A stretch of DNA of 64,000 nt from an uncultured delta proteobacterium (GCA_963828805.1 CAWHGS010000021.1:26974-90973), one strand, 5' to 3'. Shown: positions 13,441 through 23,836, numbered from the stretch's first letter. Program-made: numbers and translations. The notes: generated by a model from the sequence alone, not told the origin.

Positions 13441-14101
13441 TTGCGAAGCGGGGTCGAATTAAAGAAGAGAGGGAGTGGCCTTGTTTTCATCATCTCCGCT
13501 CCTTCCGGCGCCGGCAAGACCACGCTGATCCGGAAGGTGATGGAGGAGCTTTTGGGGCTTCAGTTTTCGGTCTCCTACACCACACGCCCGCCCAGAACAG
13601 GAGAACAAGAAGGGAAAGATTATCATTTTGTTTCCACCGCGCACTTTTATGAAAATGGTGGAAAGAGACGACTTTCTGGAGTGGGCCGAAGTCCTGGGGA
13701 ACTATTATGGTACGGAGAGGCCCAATCTCGAAAACCTCGAACTGGAAGGGAAGGACCTGATCATGGATATCGATATTCAGGGAGCCCGGAAGGTTCTTCA
13801 GGAGATGAGCCATGCCGTGGCGGTTTTCGTCCTTCCTCCTTCCCCGGAAGCCCTCAGAGAACGTCTTGTGGGGAGAGGGCTTGATCTGCCTGAAGTCATC
13901 CAGCGCCGTCTCACCAACGCCAAGAAGGAGATCGAAGAGGCTCATCGATACCGGTATGTGATTCTTAACGAAAGGCTGGAGGAGGCGGTGGAGACCCTGA
14001 AGGCGATTATTCTGGCCGAACGTTGTCAGAAAGAGAAACGGTCAATCTTCGAAATAAAAATGAAGGAATGGGAGGCTTATCATGGCAAGAATCACGGTTG
14101 A
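13441..14101 (+). CDS. gmk: Guanylate kinase, one frameshift at the A run 13652-13655
   Basis: ORF 13441.. carries the P-loop [12 protein letters not shown] and [23 protein letters not shown] 13628..14101 continues with [27 protein letters not shown]. The gene is essential, so the break is most likely a sequence error. Confidence 0.85.
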
Positions 14102-14309
14102 AGACTGTTTGAAAAAAGTGGATAGCCGGTTTGAGTTGGTGATCCTCGCAGGGCGGAGGGCGAAAATGCTTATGAAAGGAGCCAAACCCCTGGTCGAGAG
14201 ACATAATCGCCCCATCGTGACCGCTCTTCGAGAGATCGCATCCGGGAAGGTGAAGTTCATAGATCCGAGGGAGAAGGGACTGAGTGACAAGCCTGCGGAT
14301 CATGCCTAG
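14082..14309 (+). CDS. rpoZ: DNA-directed RNA polymerase omega subunit
   Basis: [30 protein letters not shown] is the canonical RpoZ N-terminus. The gmk-rpoZ arrangement is conserved. Confidence 0.9.
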
Positions 14310-14352
14310 AAAGTTCGCTGCTGAGTCGGACAACTTAATGACTTAGAAAATC

Positions 14353-14387
14353 GCATGGCGCATAGGGCATAGCGCATAGCGTAACTT
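14353..14387 (+). repeat. Heptamer array GCATRGS x4 followed by GTAAC (second copy of the 11738 family)
   Basis: gcatggc gcatagg gcatagc gcatagc gtaactt. It is preceded by agaaaatc, as at 11731. Confidence 0.9.
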
Positions 14388-14417
14388 CATAAACCAAGAA
14401 CCGGTTTCATGGTTCGA

Positions 14418-14449
14418 GCCTGCCTACCGAAGCCTTGGCGCAGGCAGGC
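14418..14449. repeat. GCCTGCCT...AGGCAGGC hairpin (CCTGCC family)
   Basis: 8-bp stem (14418-14425 with 14442-14449) and a 16-nt loop. Confidence 0.75.
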
Positions 14450-14576
14450 GTTTCCCGTGTCCGTAACTCTTTGAATTATCATGCTTCGAGGGCGCACAAA
14501 CGGCCCTCCGTCTCCCTGCTGCCTTGTTTTGCCTCTGGGGCCATGTTATCATTTTTTTTGGCTTGAAGTCTGAGTC

Positions 14577-15947
14577 ATGATCACAAGAGAAGCAAAGAAA
14601 GGATTTTGGAACGTGGAGAAGAATGGCTATCGGGAAAGGGTACTGGGGATCTACCAATTGATGAATGATCACCTTTATTTTAACCGCCCGGACCTTGAAA
14701 TCAAAGGAGAAAAATATAATTCAGCGATTCTGTTTAGCCTCCTCACGGCTCTTAAGCAGGGTAAAGAGTTGATTATCGGCGAACCCGGATTAGGGAAAAC
14801 GACCTCGGCGGAATTTATCTGTTCTCTGATTTACCAATTCCCCCTTGGGATGATTTGGGCAAGCGAGGTCTCGGGCCATCCGGAGCAGACAGAAGAAAAG
14901 ATCATTGGCCGCCCGGACCTCGGGAAATTGAACCAGGGAGAGGAGGAGGTGGTGTGGACCAACTTCACCCAGATTCCAGCCAAGATCGTCGATGAGATCA
15001 ATCGCCTGCCTGAAACCAAACAGAGCATGATTCTCGACGGTGTGGACCGGGGAAACTGGGAATACCTGAATGAGATGATCATCAACGAGGAATACTGTCT
15101 GTTTGCCACTGCCAACTATCAGGATGGGGGGACCAACACCCTCATCGCACCCTTGGTGGACCGATTCGACGTGATGATTGAATCGAAATACCCGGGAGCC
15201 AATCTCTCCTTTCAGGTAGGAAAGAACAGCCGGAAGGATCACTTTCTTCGGCACCCCAAGATCGAAAAAGAGTTTCATCGCCTCTTTAAATCGAAGATTG
15301 CCTATGACAAGAAAATGGCTAAGATGGAAGAACTCTGCGACACCTTCGGTGAATTTGTGCACGACACGCTTGGGGTCAGGCCCCTTCAGAAGCGTGACCG
15401 GGAACAGATTCGCGCTGAAATGGAAGACCTGGCCTATGATCTGGACGCGAGTGCCTTTACGCGGATGGTCCTGGCCGAATTCTCATTTTGTGAGCATTAC
15501 GGGCAGAAACGGTCGGTCGAGAACTGCGAAGAGGGATGTCATTACTCCGGCTACCTCTGTCACGAAGTCAAGAATTGCGCCTCTAACCGATTGCCCACTT
15601 CAATCAAACAGTATGCTCAGGGATTGGCATGGCTCTTACAGGATTCGGAGATTGATATCGAACATATCAAGTCCGTCATCCCCTTCACGCTGGCCCACCG
15701 GGTTCAATGGAAGGATCAGGTTCTCTCCCAGAAGGAACGGGCGAAGCGAGACGACCCTTTTTCCATCTACCTCGTGAAGGAGGCCGTCAAGGTCATCTTA
15801 CAGAGATACCGAGAACAGAGTGATCATCTCAAGGATGCTTTGGCCGTGGGTTCAAGAATCTTCCAGGGGGAATCGCTTGAGCCTCTGGAAGGAGACCACC
15901 CTCTCTACCAGGAGATCAGGAAAGATCTCGAGCGGAAGAAACATTAA
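14577..15947 (+). CDS. MoxR-like AAA+ ATPase with C-terminal five-Cys cluster
   Basis: Walker A GEPGLGKT, Walker B AKIVDEINR, sensor-1 CLFATAN, APLVDRF. C305-x11-C-x3-C-x6-C-x5-C334 maps to 15489-15578. The start is uncertain (14577 or 14661). Confidence 0.8.
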   Translation: MITREAKKGFWNVEKNGYRERVLGIYQLMNDHLYFNRPDLEIKGEKYNSAILFSLLTALKQGKELIIGEPGLGKTTSAEFICSLIYQFPLGMIWASEVSGHPEQTEEKIIGRPDLGKLNQGEEEVVWTNFTQIPAKIVDEINRLPETKQSMILDGVDRGNWEYLNEMIINEEYCLFATANYQDGGTNTLIAPLVDRFDVMIESKYPGANLSFQVGKNSRKDHFLRHPKIEKEFHRLFKSKIAYDKKMAKMEELCDTFGEFVHDTLGVRPLQKRDREQIRAEMEDLAYDLDASAFTRMVLAEFSFCEHYGQKRSVENCEEGCHYSGYLCHEVKNCASNRLPTSIKQYAQGLAWLLQDSEIDIEHIKSVIPFTLAHRVQWKDQVLSQKERAKRDDPFSIYLVKEAVKVILQRYREQSDHLKDALAVGSRIFQGESLEPLEGDHPLYQEIRKDLERKKH

Positions 15948-16008
15948 GTCAGCCTCAGCCTCTCGCTTCCGTGATGCAGGACGGGCATTCATGTGAACTC
16001 ATATCATC

Positions 16009-16773
16009 ATGAAGACAGCACCAGAGCATAAGAGAGAACAGCCAGAACATTCAGAGCCCGTAGACCGGTTGACCCAAAACCCCTTCGAAGAATTTGGCGC
16101 CTTCGCCGTTTCCCCCAGGAAACTGCCTCTTGATGAGATTGTTCATTCGACCGAGGTGGTCATGGACCGAATCCGCAAGGGTTACGAAAAGCTCCTGGAA
16201 GAGGAGGCCAAAGAGCTGGTCTGGATGGTTCAGTACAATACGATCATCAAGGCCTATGAAGTCGCAGAGCGGTATGTCAAGGAGATCGAATATGCAGCAG
16301 AGGACATCGAGGATTTCTGTTTTGCCCTGGAGAACACCCAGAAGATCCCTTATCTGATCCCTGGACCCGCGGGTCTCTACATTTCCGCCCTATGCAACTA
16401 CGTTCAGGAAGAAGAGATTCTGCTTAAGCTTTCAGAACTGAAAACAGAGATCAACCTATTAGGGTTTCGGCTTCCTAAAGGGAAGCGTCTGATGATCGAG
16501 GGAGACACGGGTGATTTCACGGGAATCGGGGTCGAGGGCGGAGAATTGGTGATTGAGGGAAACGCCAAGAACTGGACCGGGGCCGGGATGCGAAGCGGCA
16601 AGATCCTGGTACGGAAGAATATCGGTCTCCATACCGGAGAATGGATGATGGGAGGGGAGATCCATGTGGGCGGCCGAGTCAGGGGCCTCGGAAATATCGT
16701 CGAGGGAAAGGTCTATGAAAGGGACAAGCTTGTTTACCCCGGGAAAGCCCGTTATCCCAATCTTTACTACTGA
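16009..16773 (+). CDS. GXGXG-motif beta-helix protein (GltB C-terminal domain / FwdC-like), stand-alone
   Basis: The C-terminal half KRLMIEGDTGDFTGIGVEGGELVIEGNAKNWTGAGMRSGKILVRKNIGLHTGEWMMGGEIHVGGRV shows the repeated G-x-G rungs of that fold. The N-terminal ~140 aa are unrecognised. Confidence 0.65.
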   Translation: MKTAPEHKREQPEHSEPVDRLTQNPFEEFGAFAVSPRKLPLDEIVHSTEVVMDRIRKGYEKLLEEEAKELVWMVQYNTIIKAYEVAERYVKEIEYAAEDIEDFCFALENTQKIPYLIPGPAGLYISALCNYVQEEEILLKLSELKTEINLLGFRLPKGKRLMIEGDTGDFTGIGVEGGELVIEGNAKNWTGAGMRSGKILVRKNIGLHTGEWMMGGEIHVGGRVRGLGNIVEGKVYERDKLVYPGKARYPNLYY

Positions 16774-16869
16774 GAAGGAGTGAAAAAAAACACATTGCCC
16801 GCGTCACGGTCATTCCGGCCCGCAGGGCCGAGGCAGAGGCAACCATTTTTTTACACGTTCTGAGTTTCA

Positions 16870-18543
16870 GTGAAAAATCCTGAGGTTGACCCGTTTAAAG
16901 AGATGAAGCCGGACAAGGACCATCAAAAGGTCGTTATCGAAAAGATTTGGCCGAGTGTGAAGCGGAAACATCTCTTCCCTGAGATCCCGGTGCCCAGGAT
17001 CGGGGAAGAGGCCGATTTTGCCAAGGGGGGGACAGGGGAAAACGAAGGGGTCGGGCTGGAGATGAAGGAAAAGCAGATGATCCTCAATTCCGCTTTCGTT
17101 TCCAAACTGAAAGGTCAAATTCCAGAGGAACAGGCGATCGAAGCCCTGCTCGATCATGGGATATCCCATTATACGTTCTGCCCGTGGGATTTTCATACCC
17201 ATGTCCAATTGTATGCGGAAGCAAAGAAAGTGGTCAACGACAAAGCCTTGGCAAAAATCATCGCCAACTATTTTATCGATGTGGTGGCGGAGACCTACTG
17301 TGTTAAAAAGAGAACAACCGATATTCCAGATCTGCGCCGGTCCCTTCCAAAAGGCAAAGTGGATCAGGTCATTGCCTCCCTTTACCAGAAGATCTGGGGC
17401 ATAGACCTCGGGATTCCTGTTGCATCCAAGGGGAGTGGTCGACAGGAAGAGACCGTTCGGCGGCTGGCCCGGATTCCTTATCTGGATCGACCGAGGTGGC
17501 GTGATAGCATTCAAAAATTTGCCAGGTCGATGAAGCCCCTTTTGATGGAGGAACAGAGAGAACAGGAAGCTCAGGACGGAAAGGGACAACCCAACCCCAT
17601 GGGGGATCATGATTTCAACCACTATTCGCTCGATGAGATCGACCAGGGGCTGCGTGATTACGCCCAAGAGACCATGAAGGTGGCTGACTTTCGAGAAGTG
17701 GTCGATGATTTTTCGGAGGATCTCAAGGAGGCCGGCTACGGAATGGAAAGAGGGATGGGCCGGGGTCAGGGAAATCCCCTGGATGCCGATATCCTCTTCT
17801 ACATGAAATTGGCTGAAAATTATGCGGTTCCCCTCCGAAAAACCCCGATGGAGCAGAAGGGAACCTTACACCCTCATTCCCATTCTCCTTGGGAAGTAGG
17901 ATCGCCTTTTCAGGATATTGATGTGTGGACCAGCTTCGGAAAAATAATGCCCGGTGTGACTCAAATCTGGAAAAGGCGTGAAGGAAAAGGAAGAGGGAAG
18001 GTTGAAGGAGTTCCCGATTGTCTGATTGCCATCGATTCCTCGGGCAGCATGATCAACCCCCGGAAAAATATGTCCTATGCGGTGCTGGGAGCAGCCTGTG
18101 CAACCGATGCCTATCTGCGGAATCAATCAAAGGTTGCTGTTTACAATTTCAGTGATGCTCCTATGGGGGGAAAAGATGTCCTCGGGTATACCTGCAGGCG
18201 AGAGGAGATCTACCGTACCCTGTGCAAGTACTTTGGTGGAGGGACAGCCCTGGATCTTGATGATCTCTTGCCGCTCATCCGAGGAAAGAAGAGTCTCGAT
18301 CTTTTTGTCATTACAGATATGAAGATCACAAATCTCGAGACCTTGATCGGATACTTCGAAAAGATTGAAAACCGGATCACGGCCGTCCATATCGGCGAGA
18401 ATCCCTATGCGGCAAGATTCGAGAAGGCGGTGGGGAATCGAAAAAATATCAGTGTCTTTACGGTCAGGAAGAAAGAGGATATCCCGCATATCGTACTGGG
18501 AAAAATCCGCGACTATTTCAGCGCTTCCGCGGAAAAGCTCTAA
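16870..18543 (+). CDS. vWA-domain protein with N-terminal metallopeptidase-like (DUF2201_N-like) region lacking the catalytic Glu
   Basis: MIDAS CLIAIDSSGSM (D389/S391/S393, 18034-18048), GGGT459 and ITD483. N-terminal ALLDHGISHYTF has HExxH spacing with Gly in place of Glu. GTG start. Confidence 0.75.
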   Translation: MKNPEVDPFKEMKPDKDHQKVVIEKIWPSVKRKHLFPEIPVPRIGEEADFAKGGTGENEGVGLEMKEKQMILNSAFVSKLKGQIPEEQAIEALLDHGISHYTFCPWDFHTHVQLYAEAKKVVNDKALAKIIANYFIDVVAETYCVKKRTTDIPDLRRSLPKGKVDQVIASLYQKIWGIDLGIPVASKGSGRQEETVRRLARIPYLDRPRWRDSIQKFARSMKPLLMEEQREQEAQDGKGQPNPMGDHDFNHYSLDEIDQGLRDYAQETMKVADFREVVDDFSEDLKEAGYGMERGMGRGQGNPLDADILFYMKLAENYAVPLRKTPMEQKGTLHPHSHSPWEVGSPFQDIDVWTSFGKIMPGVTQIWKRREGKGRGKVEGVPDCLIAIDSSGSMINPRKNMSYAVLGAACATDAYLRNQSKVAVYNFSDAPMGGKDVLGYTCRREEIYRTLCKYFGGGTALDLDDLLPLIRGKKSLDLFVITDMKITNLETLIGYFEKIENRITAVHIGENPYAARFEKAVGNRKNISVFTVRKKEDIPHIVLGKIRDYFSASAEKL

Positions 18544-20178: not shown

Positions 20179-20595
20179 ATGGAAAAGCAGAATGCTGACA
20201 ATCAATACGGTCTTTCGGACCTGACTCCGCAAACCAAGATGGGTGTCCTGGCCATCGAGAAGCGCAGACACCCGAGGTACAGCGTGGAGTTGCCGTTGGA
20301 CTATTCTCGAATTGATGGGAGGGCGACCCTTGGCGGAATCGTGGCAAATGCCAGCGAAGGAGGTCTTCTCGTCTATCTCCCCGAGATCATGCAGATGGGA
20401 GACTTATTGAAAATTGAGATTTTCTTCGCGTCGGGACTGGAGTTGAATTCGGTCAAGGCTATTGCAAAAGTGGTATGGTACGATTTGGCGGCGAAAGAGA
20501 GCTGGGGAGAGCACCGATACGGTCTTCAGTTCCAATCGATCGAAGAAAAGGACTACGAGAGACTGAAAATCCTTTTGAGGGATGTTGGAAAATAA
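20179..20595 (+). CDS. PilZ-domain (c-di-GMP-binding) protein
   Basis: RRHPR (RxxxR) and NASEGG (D/NxSxxG) motifs with the usual spacing. 138 aa. Confidence 0.85.
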   Translation: MEKQNADNQYGLSDLTPQTKMGVLAIEKRRHPRYSVELPLDYSRIDGRATLGGIVANASEGGLLVYLPEIMQMGDLLKIEIFFASGLELNSVKAIAKVVWYDLAAKESWGEHRYGLQFQSIEEKDYERLKILLRDVGK

Positions 20596-22987: not shown

Positions 22988-23836
22988 ATGGAACCCATGC
23001 AGCTTTCGTCAATGAGCAAAGAGAGGCGGCGATTTCCGAGATTACTTCTGGATTTACCCCTTGAATATCGCGTCGTGAACGCACCCTATGCTCATGGGGG
23101 GATCGTCGTTAATGCGAGTGAGGTTGGATTCCTCATCCAATCCATCAAAAACATTCCAATCGGGACAAAACTGATGGCTGCCGTTCTCTTTCCGAGGGGA
23201 TTTGAGTTGAGCAGTTTTGAGGTGCTCGGGGAGATCATCTGGAAAGACCTCCATTGGGAGGAGGATTGGGAGGGATTTAATTATGGATTAAGAATTATCC
23301 AACTGCTCGAAGAAGACCGCGGGAAACTGAAACAGATTCTCAGCAGGACACATCCTTCTCAAAGACGTCTCGTATCAGGCCTGAGTTTCTTCGAACACCG
23401 GTCTCCAGTGAACCGTAAACTAAACCCGCTTCAGAGTGAGAGTGAAACCGTGAAAGACGCAACCGAAGAAAAAGTGCATTATGGCATTGTCAATTTCGAG
23501 AGGAGAAGATTTCCCAGATTTACGATCGATTTACCCGTCGAATATCAGCATGAGCATTCGGATACGCATTATTCAGCAAGAGCTCTGAATGCAAGCGAAG
23601 GAGGACTTCTAATTTATTTTCCAGAAAAAGTGGAGATCGGTGATGTCCTGAAATTAAAACTCTTTTTTACGCTCGGCCATGACTTGAATACGGTAGAAAT
23701 GACCGTTGAAGTAGCCTGGATCGACATCCATCTCGGAGAGGGATGGGGAGATTACCGATCGGGGGTTAAATTCGTGGATATCTCCTCAGAAAACCTTCTT
23801 AACTTAAAAGGGTTTTTAAAAAACCTCTCAGAATAG
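22988..23836 (+). CDS. Tandem PilZ-domain protein (two c-di-GMP-binding modules)
   Basis: Domain 1 has RRFPR ... NASEVG and domain 2 has RRFPR ... NASEGG. The two halves are clearly paralogous to each other and to 20179..20595. Confidence 0.85.
   Translation: MEPMQLSSMSKERRRFPRLLLDLPLEYRVVNAPYAHGGIVVNASEVGFLIQSIKNIPIGTKLMAAVLFPRGFELSSFEVLGEIIWKDLHWEEDWEGFNYGLRIIQLLEEDRGKLKQILSRTHPSQRRLVSGLSFFEHRSPVNRKLNPLQSESETVKDATEEKVHYGIVNFERRRFPRFTIDLPVEYQHEHSDTHYSARALNASEGGLLIYFPEKVEIGDVLKLKLFFTLGHDLNTVEMTVEVAWIDIHLGEGWGDYRSGVKFVDISSENLLNLKGFLKNLSE

What the first reader, a model, noticed from the sequence alone, without database searches (positions are those of the whole stretch)
14577..18543. MoxR-like AAA+ ATPase, stand-alone GXGXG beta-helix protein and vWA protein with a Glu-less HxxxH: an apparently undescribed three-gene cassette
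Seen, gene A (14577-15947): Walker A GEPGLGKT, Walker B IVDEINR, FATAN, DRF, and a C-terminal C-x11-C-x3-C-x6-C-x5-C cluster (15489-15578). Seen, gene B (16009-16773): it ends in the glycine-rung pattern GDTGDFTGIGVEGGELVIEGNAKNWTGAGMRSGKILVRKNIGLHTGEWMMGGEIHVGG, as in the GltB C-terminal / FwdC GXGXG beta-helix. Seen, gene C (16870-18543): LLDHGISH (HExxH spacing with Glu replaced by Gly, 17155-17169) and a C-terminal vWA fold with MIDAS D-S-S-G-S (18034-18048). Established: MoxR AAA+ ATPases work with vWA partners (NorQ/NorD, CbbQ/CbbO, CoxD/CoxE, CobS/CobT, RavA/ViaA) as metal-centre insertion or complex-remodelling chaperones. Inference: a GXGXG protein wedged between the pair could be the client, an adaptor, or a third subunit. 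I know of no described MoxR-GXGXG-vWA triad. The Cys cluster and retained His ligands hint at metal handling. A SAM methyltransferase and a DUF4124 protein follow on the same strand.
Basis: partly seen in the sequence, partly recalled or inferred. Interest (0 to 1): 0.7.

Follow-up and report, generated by a model that had tools for sequence, protein, structure and literature searches.

The report
Conserved AAA+ / beta-helix / vWA operon
Three adjacent genes (a divergent MoxR-type AAA+ ATPase with a cysteine cluster, a small FwdC-like beta-helix protein and a metal-site-bearing von Willebrand A protein) form a strongly conserved, unnamed operon in uncultured anaerobic bacteria, and probably encode a new three-part version of the ATP-driven chaperones that put metals into enzymes.

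Summary
ORFs A (14577-15947), B (16009-16773) and C (16870-18543) and every quoted motif are at the stated coordinates.

Domain calls:
- A is a remote MoxR/ChlI-type AAA+ ATPase. It just passes Pfam AAA_5, and its best solved relative is MoxR 2r44.
- B has a disordered N-terminal NPFxxF tail, a helical domain and a FwdC/GltS-type beta-helix.
- C has a vWA domain with an intact MIDAS, preceded by an unclassified helical domain with an invariant D-H-x3-H-x3-C-x2-D-x3-H site. That site never contains the catalytic Glu.

The adjacency is not chance:
- All 69 related loci with enough upstream DNA carry A-B-C in the same order.
- Six remote relatives of B (36-45% identity) sit in the same triad with unrelated neighbours, and one genome fuses A to B in frame.
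- The methyltransferase and DUF4124 genes are lineage-specific neighbours, not part of the system.

No curated family, defence model, plasmid, viral contig or paper covers the triad.

Best reading: a dedicated MoxR-vWA remodelling or metal-insertion chaperone with a beta-helix third subunit. The client is unknown. Its novelty is that of a new variant of a known kind.

The parts
14577..15947 (+). Gene A: divergent MoxR/ChlI-type AAA+ ATPase, 456 aa
   Evidence: ORF. Pfam AAA_5 scores 25.6 bits (cut-off 22); AAA_lid_2 and AAA_3 fall below their cut-offs. The family profile's best PDB match is MoxR 2r44 (E 0.0066), aligned over Walker A, the H2-insert-like segment, Walker B, sensor 1, the Arg finger and the sensor-2 lid.
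14778..14801 (+). Walker A GEPGLGKT (residues 68-75)
   Evidence: Invariant G68-T76 in the 9-sequence alignment.
14871..14933 (+). Invariant segment SGHPEQTEEKIIGRPDLGKLN between Walker A and B, the likely helix-2 insert / pore element
   Evidence: Invariant. It aligns with 'fTPDLLPSDLIG' of MoxR 2r44. In NorQ the H2 insert contacts the vWA finger (PMC13036017). The role proposed here is an inference.
14985..15005 (+). Walker B IVDEINR (residues 137-143)
   Evidence: Invariant. Aligned to DEVNR of 2r44.
15102..15167 (+). Sensor 1 (FATAN, N180) to Arg finger (DRF, R196)
   Evidence: Invariant. Aligned to ATQN...DRF of 2r44.
15489..15590 (+). Cys5-His cluster C305, C317, C321, H322, C328, C334, running directly into the sensor-2 motif C-A-S-N-R338
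   Evidence: All are invariant down to 52% identity. They are also present in L002 and L083. 'CASNR' aligns with the 'GASTR' sensor-2 motif of MoxR 2r44. The metal or redox role is an inference.
16009..16773 (+). Gene B: 254-aa protein with a disordered N-tail, a helical domain and a FwdC/GltS-type beta-helix
   Evidence: ORF. phmmer finds solved FwdC chains at E 6.6e-11. TIGR03122 gives 4.8e-19, below its cut-off. AF2 pLDDT is 80.5. Foldseek top matches are FwdC, FhcC and GltS alpha.
16078..16095 (+). N-terminal NPFEEF motif of B (residues 24-29), a probable docking peptide
   Evidence: F26 and F29 are invariant in 14 sequences at 34-58% identity. The motif lies in a low-confidence, non-helical tail. 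In L083 it follows the C-terminus of A after about 6 residues in one reading frame.
16126..16401 (+). Helical domain of B (residues 40-131)
   Evidence: AF2 helices 40-70, 76-90, 97-109 and 118-131. Y83, A127 and N130 are invariant.
16414..16737 (+). GXGXG beta-helix of B (residues 136-243)
   Evidence: AF2 strands, pLDDT about 90-96. Fold and sequence matches to FwdC.
16870..18543 (+). Gene C: 557-aa (or 546-aa from the ATG at 16903) protein with a helical N-domain with a metal-type site, a Gly-rich linker and a C-terminal vWA
   Evidence: ORF. No Pfam, NCBIfam or PDB sequence match for the window protein. Family alignments.
17152..17202 (+). Invariant D95-H96-x3-H100-x3-C104-P-W-D107-x3-H111 site; position 97 is always G or A, never E
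   Evidence: AF2 places H96/H100 on one helix and H111 on the next, at low confidence. Metal binding is an inference.
18019..18537 (+). vWA domain of C (residues 384-556) with a complete MIDAS: D389-S-S391-G-S393 (18034-18048), T459 (18244-18246), D483 (18316-18318)
   Evidence: VWA_2 in 10/10 family members, best E 7.9e-6, and precomputed PF13519 on many relatives. All 50 top Foldseek matches are vWA domains, including NorD 9qhe_G. MIDAS residues are invariant.

Best explanation
A, B and C are the three subunits of one conserved, chromosomal, housekeeping-type machine. It is a MoxR-class AAA+ / vWA remodelling chaperone with an extra beta-helix subunit.

Shown:
- The three genes are inherited together as an operon.
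- A has all the AAA+ catalytic motifs.
- C has a NorD/CbbO-like layout: a helical N-domain, a linker, and a C-terminal vWA with an intact MIDAS.
- B is a FwdC-like beta-helix whose N-terminal tail can be fused to the C-terminus of A.

Inferred:
- A forms a hexamer.
- The vWA domain of C docks on the ring ('finger-in-pore', as in NorQ-NorD). ATP hydrolysis then twists or stretches C's linker and N-domain against a client enzyme.
- The invariant His/Cys/Asp site in C's N-domain holds or hands over a metal ion.
- B is tethered to the C-terminal face of A through its NPFxxF tail and serves as a rigid docking platform for the client or for C. The homologous beta-helices of FwdC and glutamate synthase are likewise structural scaffolds.
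- The Cys5-His cluster that abuts the sensor-2 arginine of A is a structural zinc or Fe-S/redox element that could gate ATPase activity.

The client is not encoded next to the operon and remains unknown.
For: Co-inheritance:
- A-B-C is colinear and adjacent in 69/69 loci with enough upstream DNA.
- Identities to the window proteins are correlated across loci (Spearman 0.83-0.88).
- The triad recurs with unrelated flanks around remote B relatives of 36-45% identity: P0244, P0247, P0248, P0251, P0252 and P0256.
- There is an in-frame A-B fusion in L083.
- Gene calls with 4-nt overlaps occur in L084, L085, L087 and L002.

Strong constraint: A, B and C are more conserved than the adjacent yicC and gmk in 27/27 loci (medians 77/81/69% vs 64/56%).

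Domain identities.

Invariant motifs.

The mechanistic template (finger-in-pore, H2 insert, linker stretching, metal insertion, redox-sensitive cysteines in the ATPase) comes from NorQD (PMC13036017).

The genomic setting is housekeeping (Lon, ArsA-like ATPase, PBP1A, UvrA, KdsB, rpoZ, gmk). There are no defence, plasmid or viral signals.
Against: - No client, no metal and no complex has been observed; the mechanism is entirely by analogy.
- A's link to MoxR is weak at the sequence level. AAA_3 and AAA_lid_2 fall below their cut-offs, and the PDB profile match has E = 0.0066.
- The model of C is poor (pLDDT 53.6), so neither a 'finger' nor the fold of the N-domain could be identified.
- No riboswitch or other regulatory clue lies upstream.
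- One B-like protein (P0253, 35% identity) stands alone next to an ornithine carbamoyltransferase gene, so the B fold is not restricted to the triad.
- The A-B fusion rests on a single MAG contig.
Confidence: 0.55

Rival explanations
1. The triad is a class-I-chelatase-like enzyme rather than a protein chaperone. A would play the ChlI/CobS role and C the ChlD/CobT role (vWA plus a metal site). B would replace the large substrate-binding subunit (ChlH/CobN) and present a small-molecule cofactor for ATP-dependent metal insertion.
For: - Class I chelatases are three-component AAA+ / vWA / third-subunit systems (established knowledge).
- A's lid weakly matches the ChlI lid.
- Some sources label C relatives 'Mg-chelatase subunit ChlD'.
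- C carries an invariant metal-type site.
Against: - B (254 aa, beta-helix) has no similarity to ChlH/CobN, and its only invariant polar side chains are Y83, N130 and D169, with no evident ligand pocket.
- No tetrapyrrole or cofactor-biosynthesis genes recur next to the operon.
- C lacks the AAA-like N-domain of ChlD.
Confidence: 0.12
2. B is not an adaptor but the client or a regulated cargo. A and C would remodel, assemble or disassemble B oligomers. Alternatively, the triad is a general proteostasis unfoldase working with Lon.
For: - B is the most conserved of the three (median 81%).
- Lon and an ArsA/HSP20-type ATPase lie directly downstream of C in 12 and 7 loci of one clade respectively.
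- The disordered N-tail of B could be a pore-engaging degron-like peptide.
Against: - An in-frame A-B fusion is easier to reconcile with a subunit than with a substrate.
- The Lon linkage is confined to one clade; other clades have PBP1A, a methyltransferase or thioredoxin in that position.
- MoxR ATPases are not known to thread substrates (established knowledge; PMC13036017).
Confidence: 0.15
3. The triad is a MoxR-vWA 'ternary' conflict/defence system of the kind described by Kaur et al. 2020, with B as a new third component or effector.
For: Ternary MoxR-vWA systems with a variable third gene are known (PMC7159879).
Against: - There is no VMAP or iSTAND component and no effector domain. The proteins are very highly conserved, whereas those conflict systems diversify.
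- The triad sits among housekeeping genes.
- No PADLOC hit, and nothing on plasmids or viral contigs.
Confidence: 0.04
4. The three genes are merely neighbours without a common function.
For: None beyond the absence of experimental data.
Against: 69/69 colinear loci, remote triads with different flanks, correlated divergence, gene overlaps and a fusion.
Confidence: 0.01

Closest known systems
NorQ-NorD (and CbbQ-CbbO) MoxR AAA+ / vWA metal-insertion and enzyme-repair chaperones
   Same: A MoxR-class AAA+ gene lies next to a partner with a helical N-domain, a linker and a C-terminal vWA with MIDAS. NorD is among the structural matches of C. There is a conserved segment in the position of the H2 insert, and there are cysteines in the ATPase (PMC13036017).
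   Different: - A third, obligatory beta-helix gene sits between the pair.
- A and C match no NorQ/NorD or CbbQ/CbbO models.
- A has a Cys5-His insertion at sensor 2.
- C has a His/Cys/Asp site.
- No cNOR or Rubisco genes are nearby.
- The client is unknown.
FwdC / FhcC and the C-terminal GXGXG domain of glutamate synthase (GltB domain 3)
   Same: The beta-helix fold and glycine-rung sequence pattern. In those enzymes the domain is a non-catalytic scaffold (established knowledge).
   Different: - B scores below the FwdC and Pfam GXGXG cut-offs.
- B has an extra helical domain and an NPFxxF tail.
- B is never next to FwdA/B/D or GltB/GltD genes in the loci examined; it is always next to an AAA+ and a vWA gene.
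Class I chelatases (ChlI-ChlD-ChlH, CobS-CobT-CobN)
   Same: A three-gene logic of AAA+ motor, vWA/MIDAS partner and third subunit, with a weak ChlI-lid similarity.
   Different: The third subunit is unrelated and about five times smaller. C lacks the AAA-like half of ChlD. There is no cofactor-biosynthesis context.
MoxR-vWA ternary conflict systems (VMAP, iSTAND; Kaur et al. 2020, PMC7159879)
   Same: A MoxR + vWA + third-gene architecture.
   Different: No VMAP/iSTAND, no effectors, no diversification, and a housekeeping context.
DUF2201_N/DUF2201 (zincin-like + vWA-like) partners of MoxR ATPases
   Same: The comparison rests on my own knowledge of that Pfam family.
   Different: No hit to DUF2201_N or DUF2201 in 10 family members, even at E up to 10. 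The catalytic Glu is absent in every sequence. Homology is therefore untested rather than shown.

Membership tests
MoxR-class AAA+ ATPases (helix-2-insert clade) | Walker A, Walker B, sensor 1, Arg finger and a sensor-2 Arg in the lid | tested here: met
   GEPGLGKT, IVDEINR, ATAN (N180), DRF (R196) and CASNR (R338) are invariant. They align with the same motifs of MoxR 2r44.
MoxR-class AAA+ ATPases (helix-2-insert clade) | Significant match to the curated MoxR models (Pfam AAA_3 PF07726, AAA_lid_2 PF17863) or AAA_5 | tested here: inconclusive
   AAA_5 scores 25.6 bits against a cut-off of 22, so it passes. AAA_3 scores 16.4 against 27 and AAA_lid_2 scores 19.6 against 22.7, so both fail. The PDB profile match to 2r44 has E = 0.0066.
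MoxR-class AAA+ ATPases (helix-2-insert clade) | Adjacent vWA/MIDAS partner gene | tested here: met
   C follows in 69/69 loci. vWA evidence is.
MoxR-class AAA+ ATPases (helix-2-insert clade) | Hexameric ring with ATPase activity | not testable with these tools
   Needs biochemistry or complex modelling.
FwdC (formylmethanofuran dehydrogenase subunit C) / Pfam GXGXG | Score above the curated cut-offs (TIGR03122 130.65; PF01493 32.5) | tested here: not met
   68.6 bits and 25.5 bits respectively.
FwdC (formylmethanofuran dehydrogenase subunit C) / Pfam GXGXG | Right-handed GXGXG beta-helix fold | tested here: met
   AF2 pLDDT is about 90-96 over residues 136-243. Top Foldseek matches are 5t61_C, 8rja_C, 6s6y_C and 1ea0_A. 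phmmer to FwdC chains gives E = 6.6e-11.
FwdC (formylmethanofuran dehydrogenase subunit C) / Pfam GXGXG | Encoded with FwdA/B/D, or part of GltB | tested here: not met
   The neighbours are always the AAA+ and vWA genes.
von Willebrand A domain with MIDAS | vWA fold | tested here: met
   All 50 top Foldseek matches are vWA domains, although the model is low-confidence. VWA_2 hits in 10/10 relatives.
von Willebrand A domain with MIDAS | MIDAS residues DxSxS...T...D | tested here: met
   D389, S391, S393, T459 and D483 are invariant.
Zincin-like / DUF2201_N domain | HExxH with a catalytic Glu, and a profile match | tested here: not met
   Position 97 is G or A in every sequence. There is no DUF2201_N hit.
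MoxR-vWA ternary conflict systems (Kaur et al. 2020) | VMAP or iSTAND third component and variable effector domains | tested here: not met
   The third gene is a beta-helix protein. The architecture is invariant. There is no PADLOC hit.
Class I chelatases | Large ChlH/CobN-type substrate-binding subunit | tested here: not met
   No such gene in or next to the triad in any locus examined.

The most novel reading that the evidence does not exclude
The triad is a previously unrecognised, near-essential metallocentre-maturation machine of anaerobic Thermodesulfobacteriota and Tectomicrobia. In this reading, an Fe-S or redox-active Cys5-His cluster wired directly to the sensor-2 arginine gates a MoxR motor. 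A beta-helix subunit (not the vWA partner alone) selects the client. The Glu-less H-x3-H-x3-C site of the vWA partner delivers the metal. That would be a new architecture and a new regulatory principle for MoxR chaperones, pointing to an unidentified metalloenzyme client in these uncultured lineages.
Probability: 0.2. Interest if true: 0.75.

Novelty: new variant of a known kind. Interest (0 to 1): 0.57.

Why it matters
MoxR-vWA pairs are widespread, but only a handful (NorQD, CbbQO, CoxDE, RavA-ViaA) have known clients, and their mechanism was only recently visualised.

This triad adds three things:
- a fixed third subunit of a fold never linked to AAA+ motors;
- a conserved cysteine cluster sitting on the ATP-sensing element;
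- a candidate metal site on the vWA partner.

It is also under stronger constraint than neighbouring housekeeping genes, in at least 167 species-level genomes, and all 80 that were displayed are metagenome-assembled genomes. It defines three unnamed protein families, gives a clean target for structural and biochemical work, and could lead to an unknown metalloenzyme maturation pathway in syntrophic and sulfate-reducing anaerobes.

Tried and rejected
- Sequence searches of C against Pfam, NCBIfam and the PDB, as a single sequence and as a 10-sequence profile, gave nothing for the N-domain. A DUF2201_N/zincin origin could therefore be neither confirmed nor excluded.
- The AF2 model of C was poor (pLDDT 53.6). 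Only its vWA half gave interpretable fold matches.
- A phmmer search with the Cys-cluster segment found only alpha-hairpinin peptides at E about 0.4, which is not meaningful.
- Back-translated pattern scans with B alignments failed for lack of conserved stretches. The genome scan was done with C instead.
- Rfam found no riboswitch in the window or upstream of A. The promoter/terminator scan was at background level.
- PADLOC, plasmid tblastn and the viral-contig scan were all negative.
- Taxonomy of the remote loci L084, L087 and L088 could not be read from cluster names. Tectomicrobia and Thermodesulfobacteriota names appeared only among relatives of the L087 copy of C.
These genes are absent from all loci where C is below 66% identical and from part of the near clade.
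- The FAD_binding_4-C fusion (P0573/L091) comes from a single contig, has a junction at a shared 'QIIEE' and lacks A/B upstream. I did not use it as evidence.

Full report
**Observation.**
The window carries three consecutive + strand ORFs at exactly the reported coordinates: A 14577-15947 (456 aa), B 16009-16773 (254 aa) and C 16870-18543 (557 aa). All quoted motifs are present at the quoted positions:
- A: Walker A GEPGLGKT at residues 68-75, Walker B IVDEINR at 137-143, FATAN/N180, DRF/R196, and five cysteines at 305-334 (15489-15578).
- B: the glycine-rung run at residues 165-222.
- C: HGISH at residues 96-100 (17155-17169) and DSSGS at 389-393 (18034-18048).

The start of C is uncertain. 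It is either the GTG at 16870 or the ATG at 16903; relatives are mostly 541-549 aa. Upstream lie yicC, a gmk split over two frames, and rpoZ. Downstream lie a UbiE-type methyltransferase, a DUF4124 protein and a PilZ protein.

**Domain identities: gene A.**
- It passes Pfam AAA_5 narrowly (25.6 vs 22 bits). It touches AAA, AAA_lid_2 and AAA_3 below or near their cut-offs, and it has no NCBIfam family.
- A 9-sequence family profile finds the MoxR structure 2r44 as its best PDB match (E 0.0066) and the ChlI lid weakly.
- The 2r44 alignment covers Walker A, the segment 'SGHPEQTEEKIIGRP' opposite MoxR's 'fTPDLLPSDLIG', Walker B, sensor 1 and the DRF arginine finger. It also places the lid motif 'C-A-S-N-R338' opposite MoxR's sensor-2 'G-A-S-T-R'.
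- A is therefore a very divergent MoxR/ChlI-type AAA+ ATPase.
- The Cys cluster (C305, C317, C321, H322, C328, C334) is invariant down to 52% identity. It runs straight into the sensor-2 motif.

**Domain identities: gene B.**
- It scores below the Pfam GXGXG and TIGR03122 FwdC cut-offs. It nevertheless matches solved FwdC chains at E = 6.6e-11.
- The AF2 model (pLDDT 80.5) shows a disordered N-terminal tail (residues 1-39), four helices (40-131) and a beta-helix (136-243).
- Its top fold matches are FwdC, FhcC and the glutamate synthase alpha subunit.
- Across 14 relatives at 34-58% identity, the invariant positions are glycines of the rungs, Y83, A127, N130, D169 and two phenylalanines of an N-terminal NPFxxF motif. 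None of these invariant residues resembles a known catalytic motif.

**Domain identities: gene C.**
- The window protein has no significant Pfam, NCBIfam or PDB sequence match.
- VWA_2 is hit by 10 of 10 diverse family members (best E 7.9e-6), and many relatives carry a precomputed PF13519 assignment.
- The AF2 model is poor (pLDDT 53.6). Even so, all 50 best fold matches are vWA domains, including NorD in the NorQD complex.
- The MIDAS residues D389, S391, S393, T459 and D483 are invariant.
- The N-terminal ~330 residues are predicted helical. They carry an invariant D95-H96-x3-H100-x3-C104-P-W-D107-x3-H111 motif. Position 97 is Gly or Ala in every sequence, never Glu.
- No DUF2201_N or zincin profile is matched.

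**Is the adjacency meaningful?**
- A genome scan with C patterns found 167 species-level genomes. The 80 shown are all MAGs of Thermodesulfobacteriota, labelled Syntrophaceae, Syntrophorhabdus, Syntrophobacterales, Desulfarculaceae, Desulfobacteraceae and similar.
- tblastn of A, B and C shows the three genes adjacent and in the same order in every locus with at least 2.3 kb upstream of C, 69 of 69.
- Identities to the window proteins are correlated across loci (Spearman 0.83-0.88).
- The flanks are not conserved. yicC/gmk/rpoZ, the methyltransferase and DUF4124 accompany the triad only in the near clade, where C is at least 66% identical, and the methyltransferase is missing in part of it. 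Other clades have Lon plus an ArsA/HSP20-type ATPase, PBP1A, UvrA or KdsB.
- An exhaustive representative search with B found about 25 full-length family representatives at E below 1e-30, above a large background of generic GXGXG proteins.
- Of eight remote family members looked up, six (36-45% identity to B) lie in A-B-C triads with entirely different neighbours: protein kinase/PP2C, thioredoxin, an aldehyde ferredoxin oxidoreductase (AFOR) gene, NADH dehydrogenase and FKBP.
- One of the eight (P0250) is an in-frame fusion of the C-terminus of A to the NLFEDF tail of B.
- One of the eight (P0253, 35% identity) stands alone.
- Gene calls often overlap by 4 nt.
- Relatives of the remote L087 copy of C include proteins named from Candidatus Tectomicrobia/Entotheonellaceae. 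The triad therefore spans at least two phyla.
- In 27 loci that also contain yicC and gmk, A, B and C are each more conserved than both housekeeping neighbours (medians 77, 81 and 69% vs 64 and 56%).

**What it is not.**
- There are no PADLOC hits, no plasmid matches, no viral contigs and no riboswitch.
- The known MoxR-vWA ternary conflict systems use VMAP or iSTAND third components with diversifying effectors (PMC7159879). This triad is invariant and sits among housekeeping genes.
- Full-text searches found no paper that co-mentions MoxR with GXGXG or FwdC.
- Public names for the three proteins are 'hypothetical protein', 'VWA domain-containing protein', 'Mg-chelatase subunit ChlD', 'glutamate synthase domain-containing protein 3' or 'formylmethanofuran dehydrogenase subunit C'.

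**Most likely mechanism.**
By analogy with NorQ-NorD, the vWA domain and a finger enter the pore and contact the H2 insert, and ATP hydrolysis twists and stretches the partner's linker to open the client for metal insertion (PMC13036017). On that template I propose the following:
- A forms the hexameric motor.
- C is the NorD-like partner. Its MIDAS and N-domain grip a client, and its His/Cys/Asp site handles a metal.
- B is tethered to the C-terminal side of A by its NPFxxF tail, and it provides a rigid beta-helix platform that contributes to client selection or complex geometry.
- The Cys5-His cluster next to the sensor-2 arginine is a plausible structural-zinc or Fe-S/redox element. A thioredoxin gene overlapping the stop codon of C in one remote locus and the redox-sensitive cysteines of NorQ make redox gating conceivable.

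What is shown: co-inheritance, domain identities and invariant motifs. What is inferred: complex formation, metal binding, the adaptor role and redox gating. The client is not encoded nearby.

**Rivals.**
- A class-I-chelatase-like enzyme. It shares the three-part logic, but B is unrelated to ChlH/CobN and there is no cofactor-biosynthesis context.
- B as the client, or a Lon-linked proteostasis role. The Lon linkage is clade-specific, and a fusion argues for a subunit.
- A defence system, disfavoured on all counts.
- Chance adjacency, refuted.

**Verdict.**
The finding is real and its interpretation is essentially right. This is a conserved, unnamed three-gene system that extends the MoxR-vWA chaperone paradigm with a new third subunit and new sequence families. 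It is a new variant of a known kind and of moderate to high interest. Its function and client remain open.

Noticed in passing
window 13465-14095: The guanylate kinase gene is split over two reading frames. Residues 2-62 of a relative's Gmk align in frame 1 at 13465-13647, and residues 32-211 align in frame 2 at 13556-14095. This is either a frameshift in an essential gene or, more likely, an assembly or sequencing error.
   Followed up: partly
L089 523-7477 and L090 (relatives of P0255): An archaeal-looking contig (class I lysyl-tRNA synthetase, Sua5) carries a tandem array of 8 same-strand genes. Four have weak Pfam GXGXG hits, among them the two-module 529-aa protein P0255; the others have no Pfam hit. 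None is next to an AAA+ or vWA gene.
   Followed up: no
L091 835-3411: A homologue of C is fused in frame to an N-terminal FAD_binding_4 domain. The junction falls at a shared 'QIIEE' peptide. A paralogue of the FAD protein lies upstream instead of A/B, and Lon lies downstream. It is a single metagenomic contig and may be chimeric.
   Followed up: partly
L084 10360-10689: In a remote triad on a 4.7-Mb contig, a thioredoxin gene overlaps the stop codon of C by 4 nt. A ZnuA-type metal-binding protein and a permease/DUF1980 pair lie a few kb downstream.
   Followed up: no
L049-L077 (e.g. L072 5676-8114, L051 8975-10192): In one clade, Lon protease directly follows C on the same strand in 12 loci. 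An ArsA-type ATPase with an HSP20-like domain follows Lon in 7 of them.
   Followed up: partly
L037 1885-3447 and 26 other near-clade loci: Most near relatives have a ~477-aa HD-domain gene between rpoZ and gene A. It is absent from the window, where a 277-nt intergenic region (14300-14577) takes its place.
   Followed up: no
window 20179-20595 and 22988-23836: A PilZ-domain gene lies downstream. A second ORF has two PilZ-like repeats, judged by eye from its sequence. Relatives such as L001 also have three PilZ genes after the DUF4124 gene.
   Followed up: no
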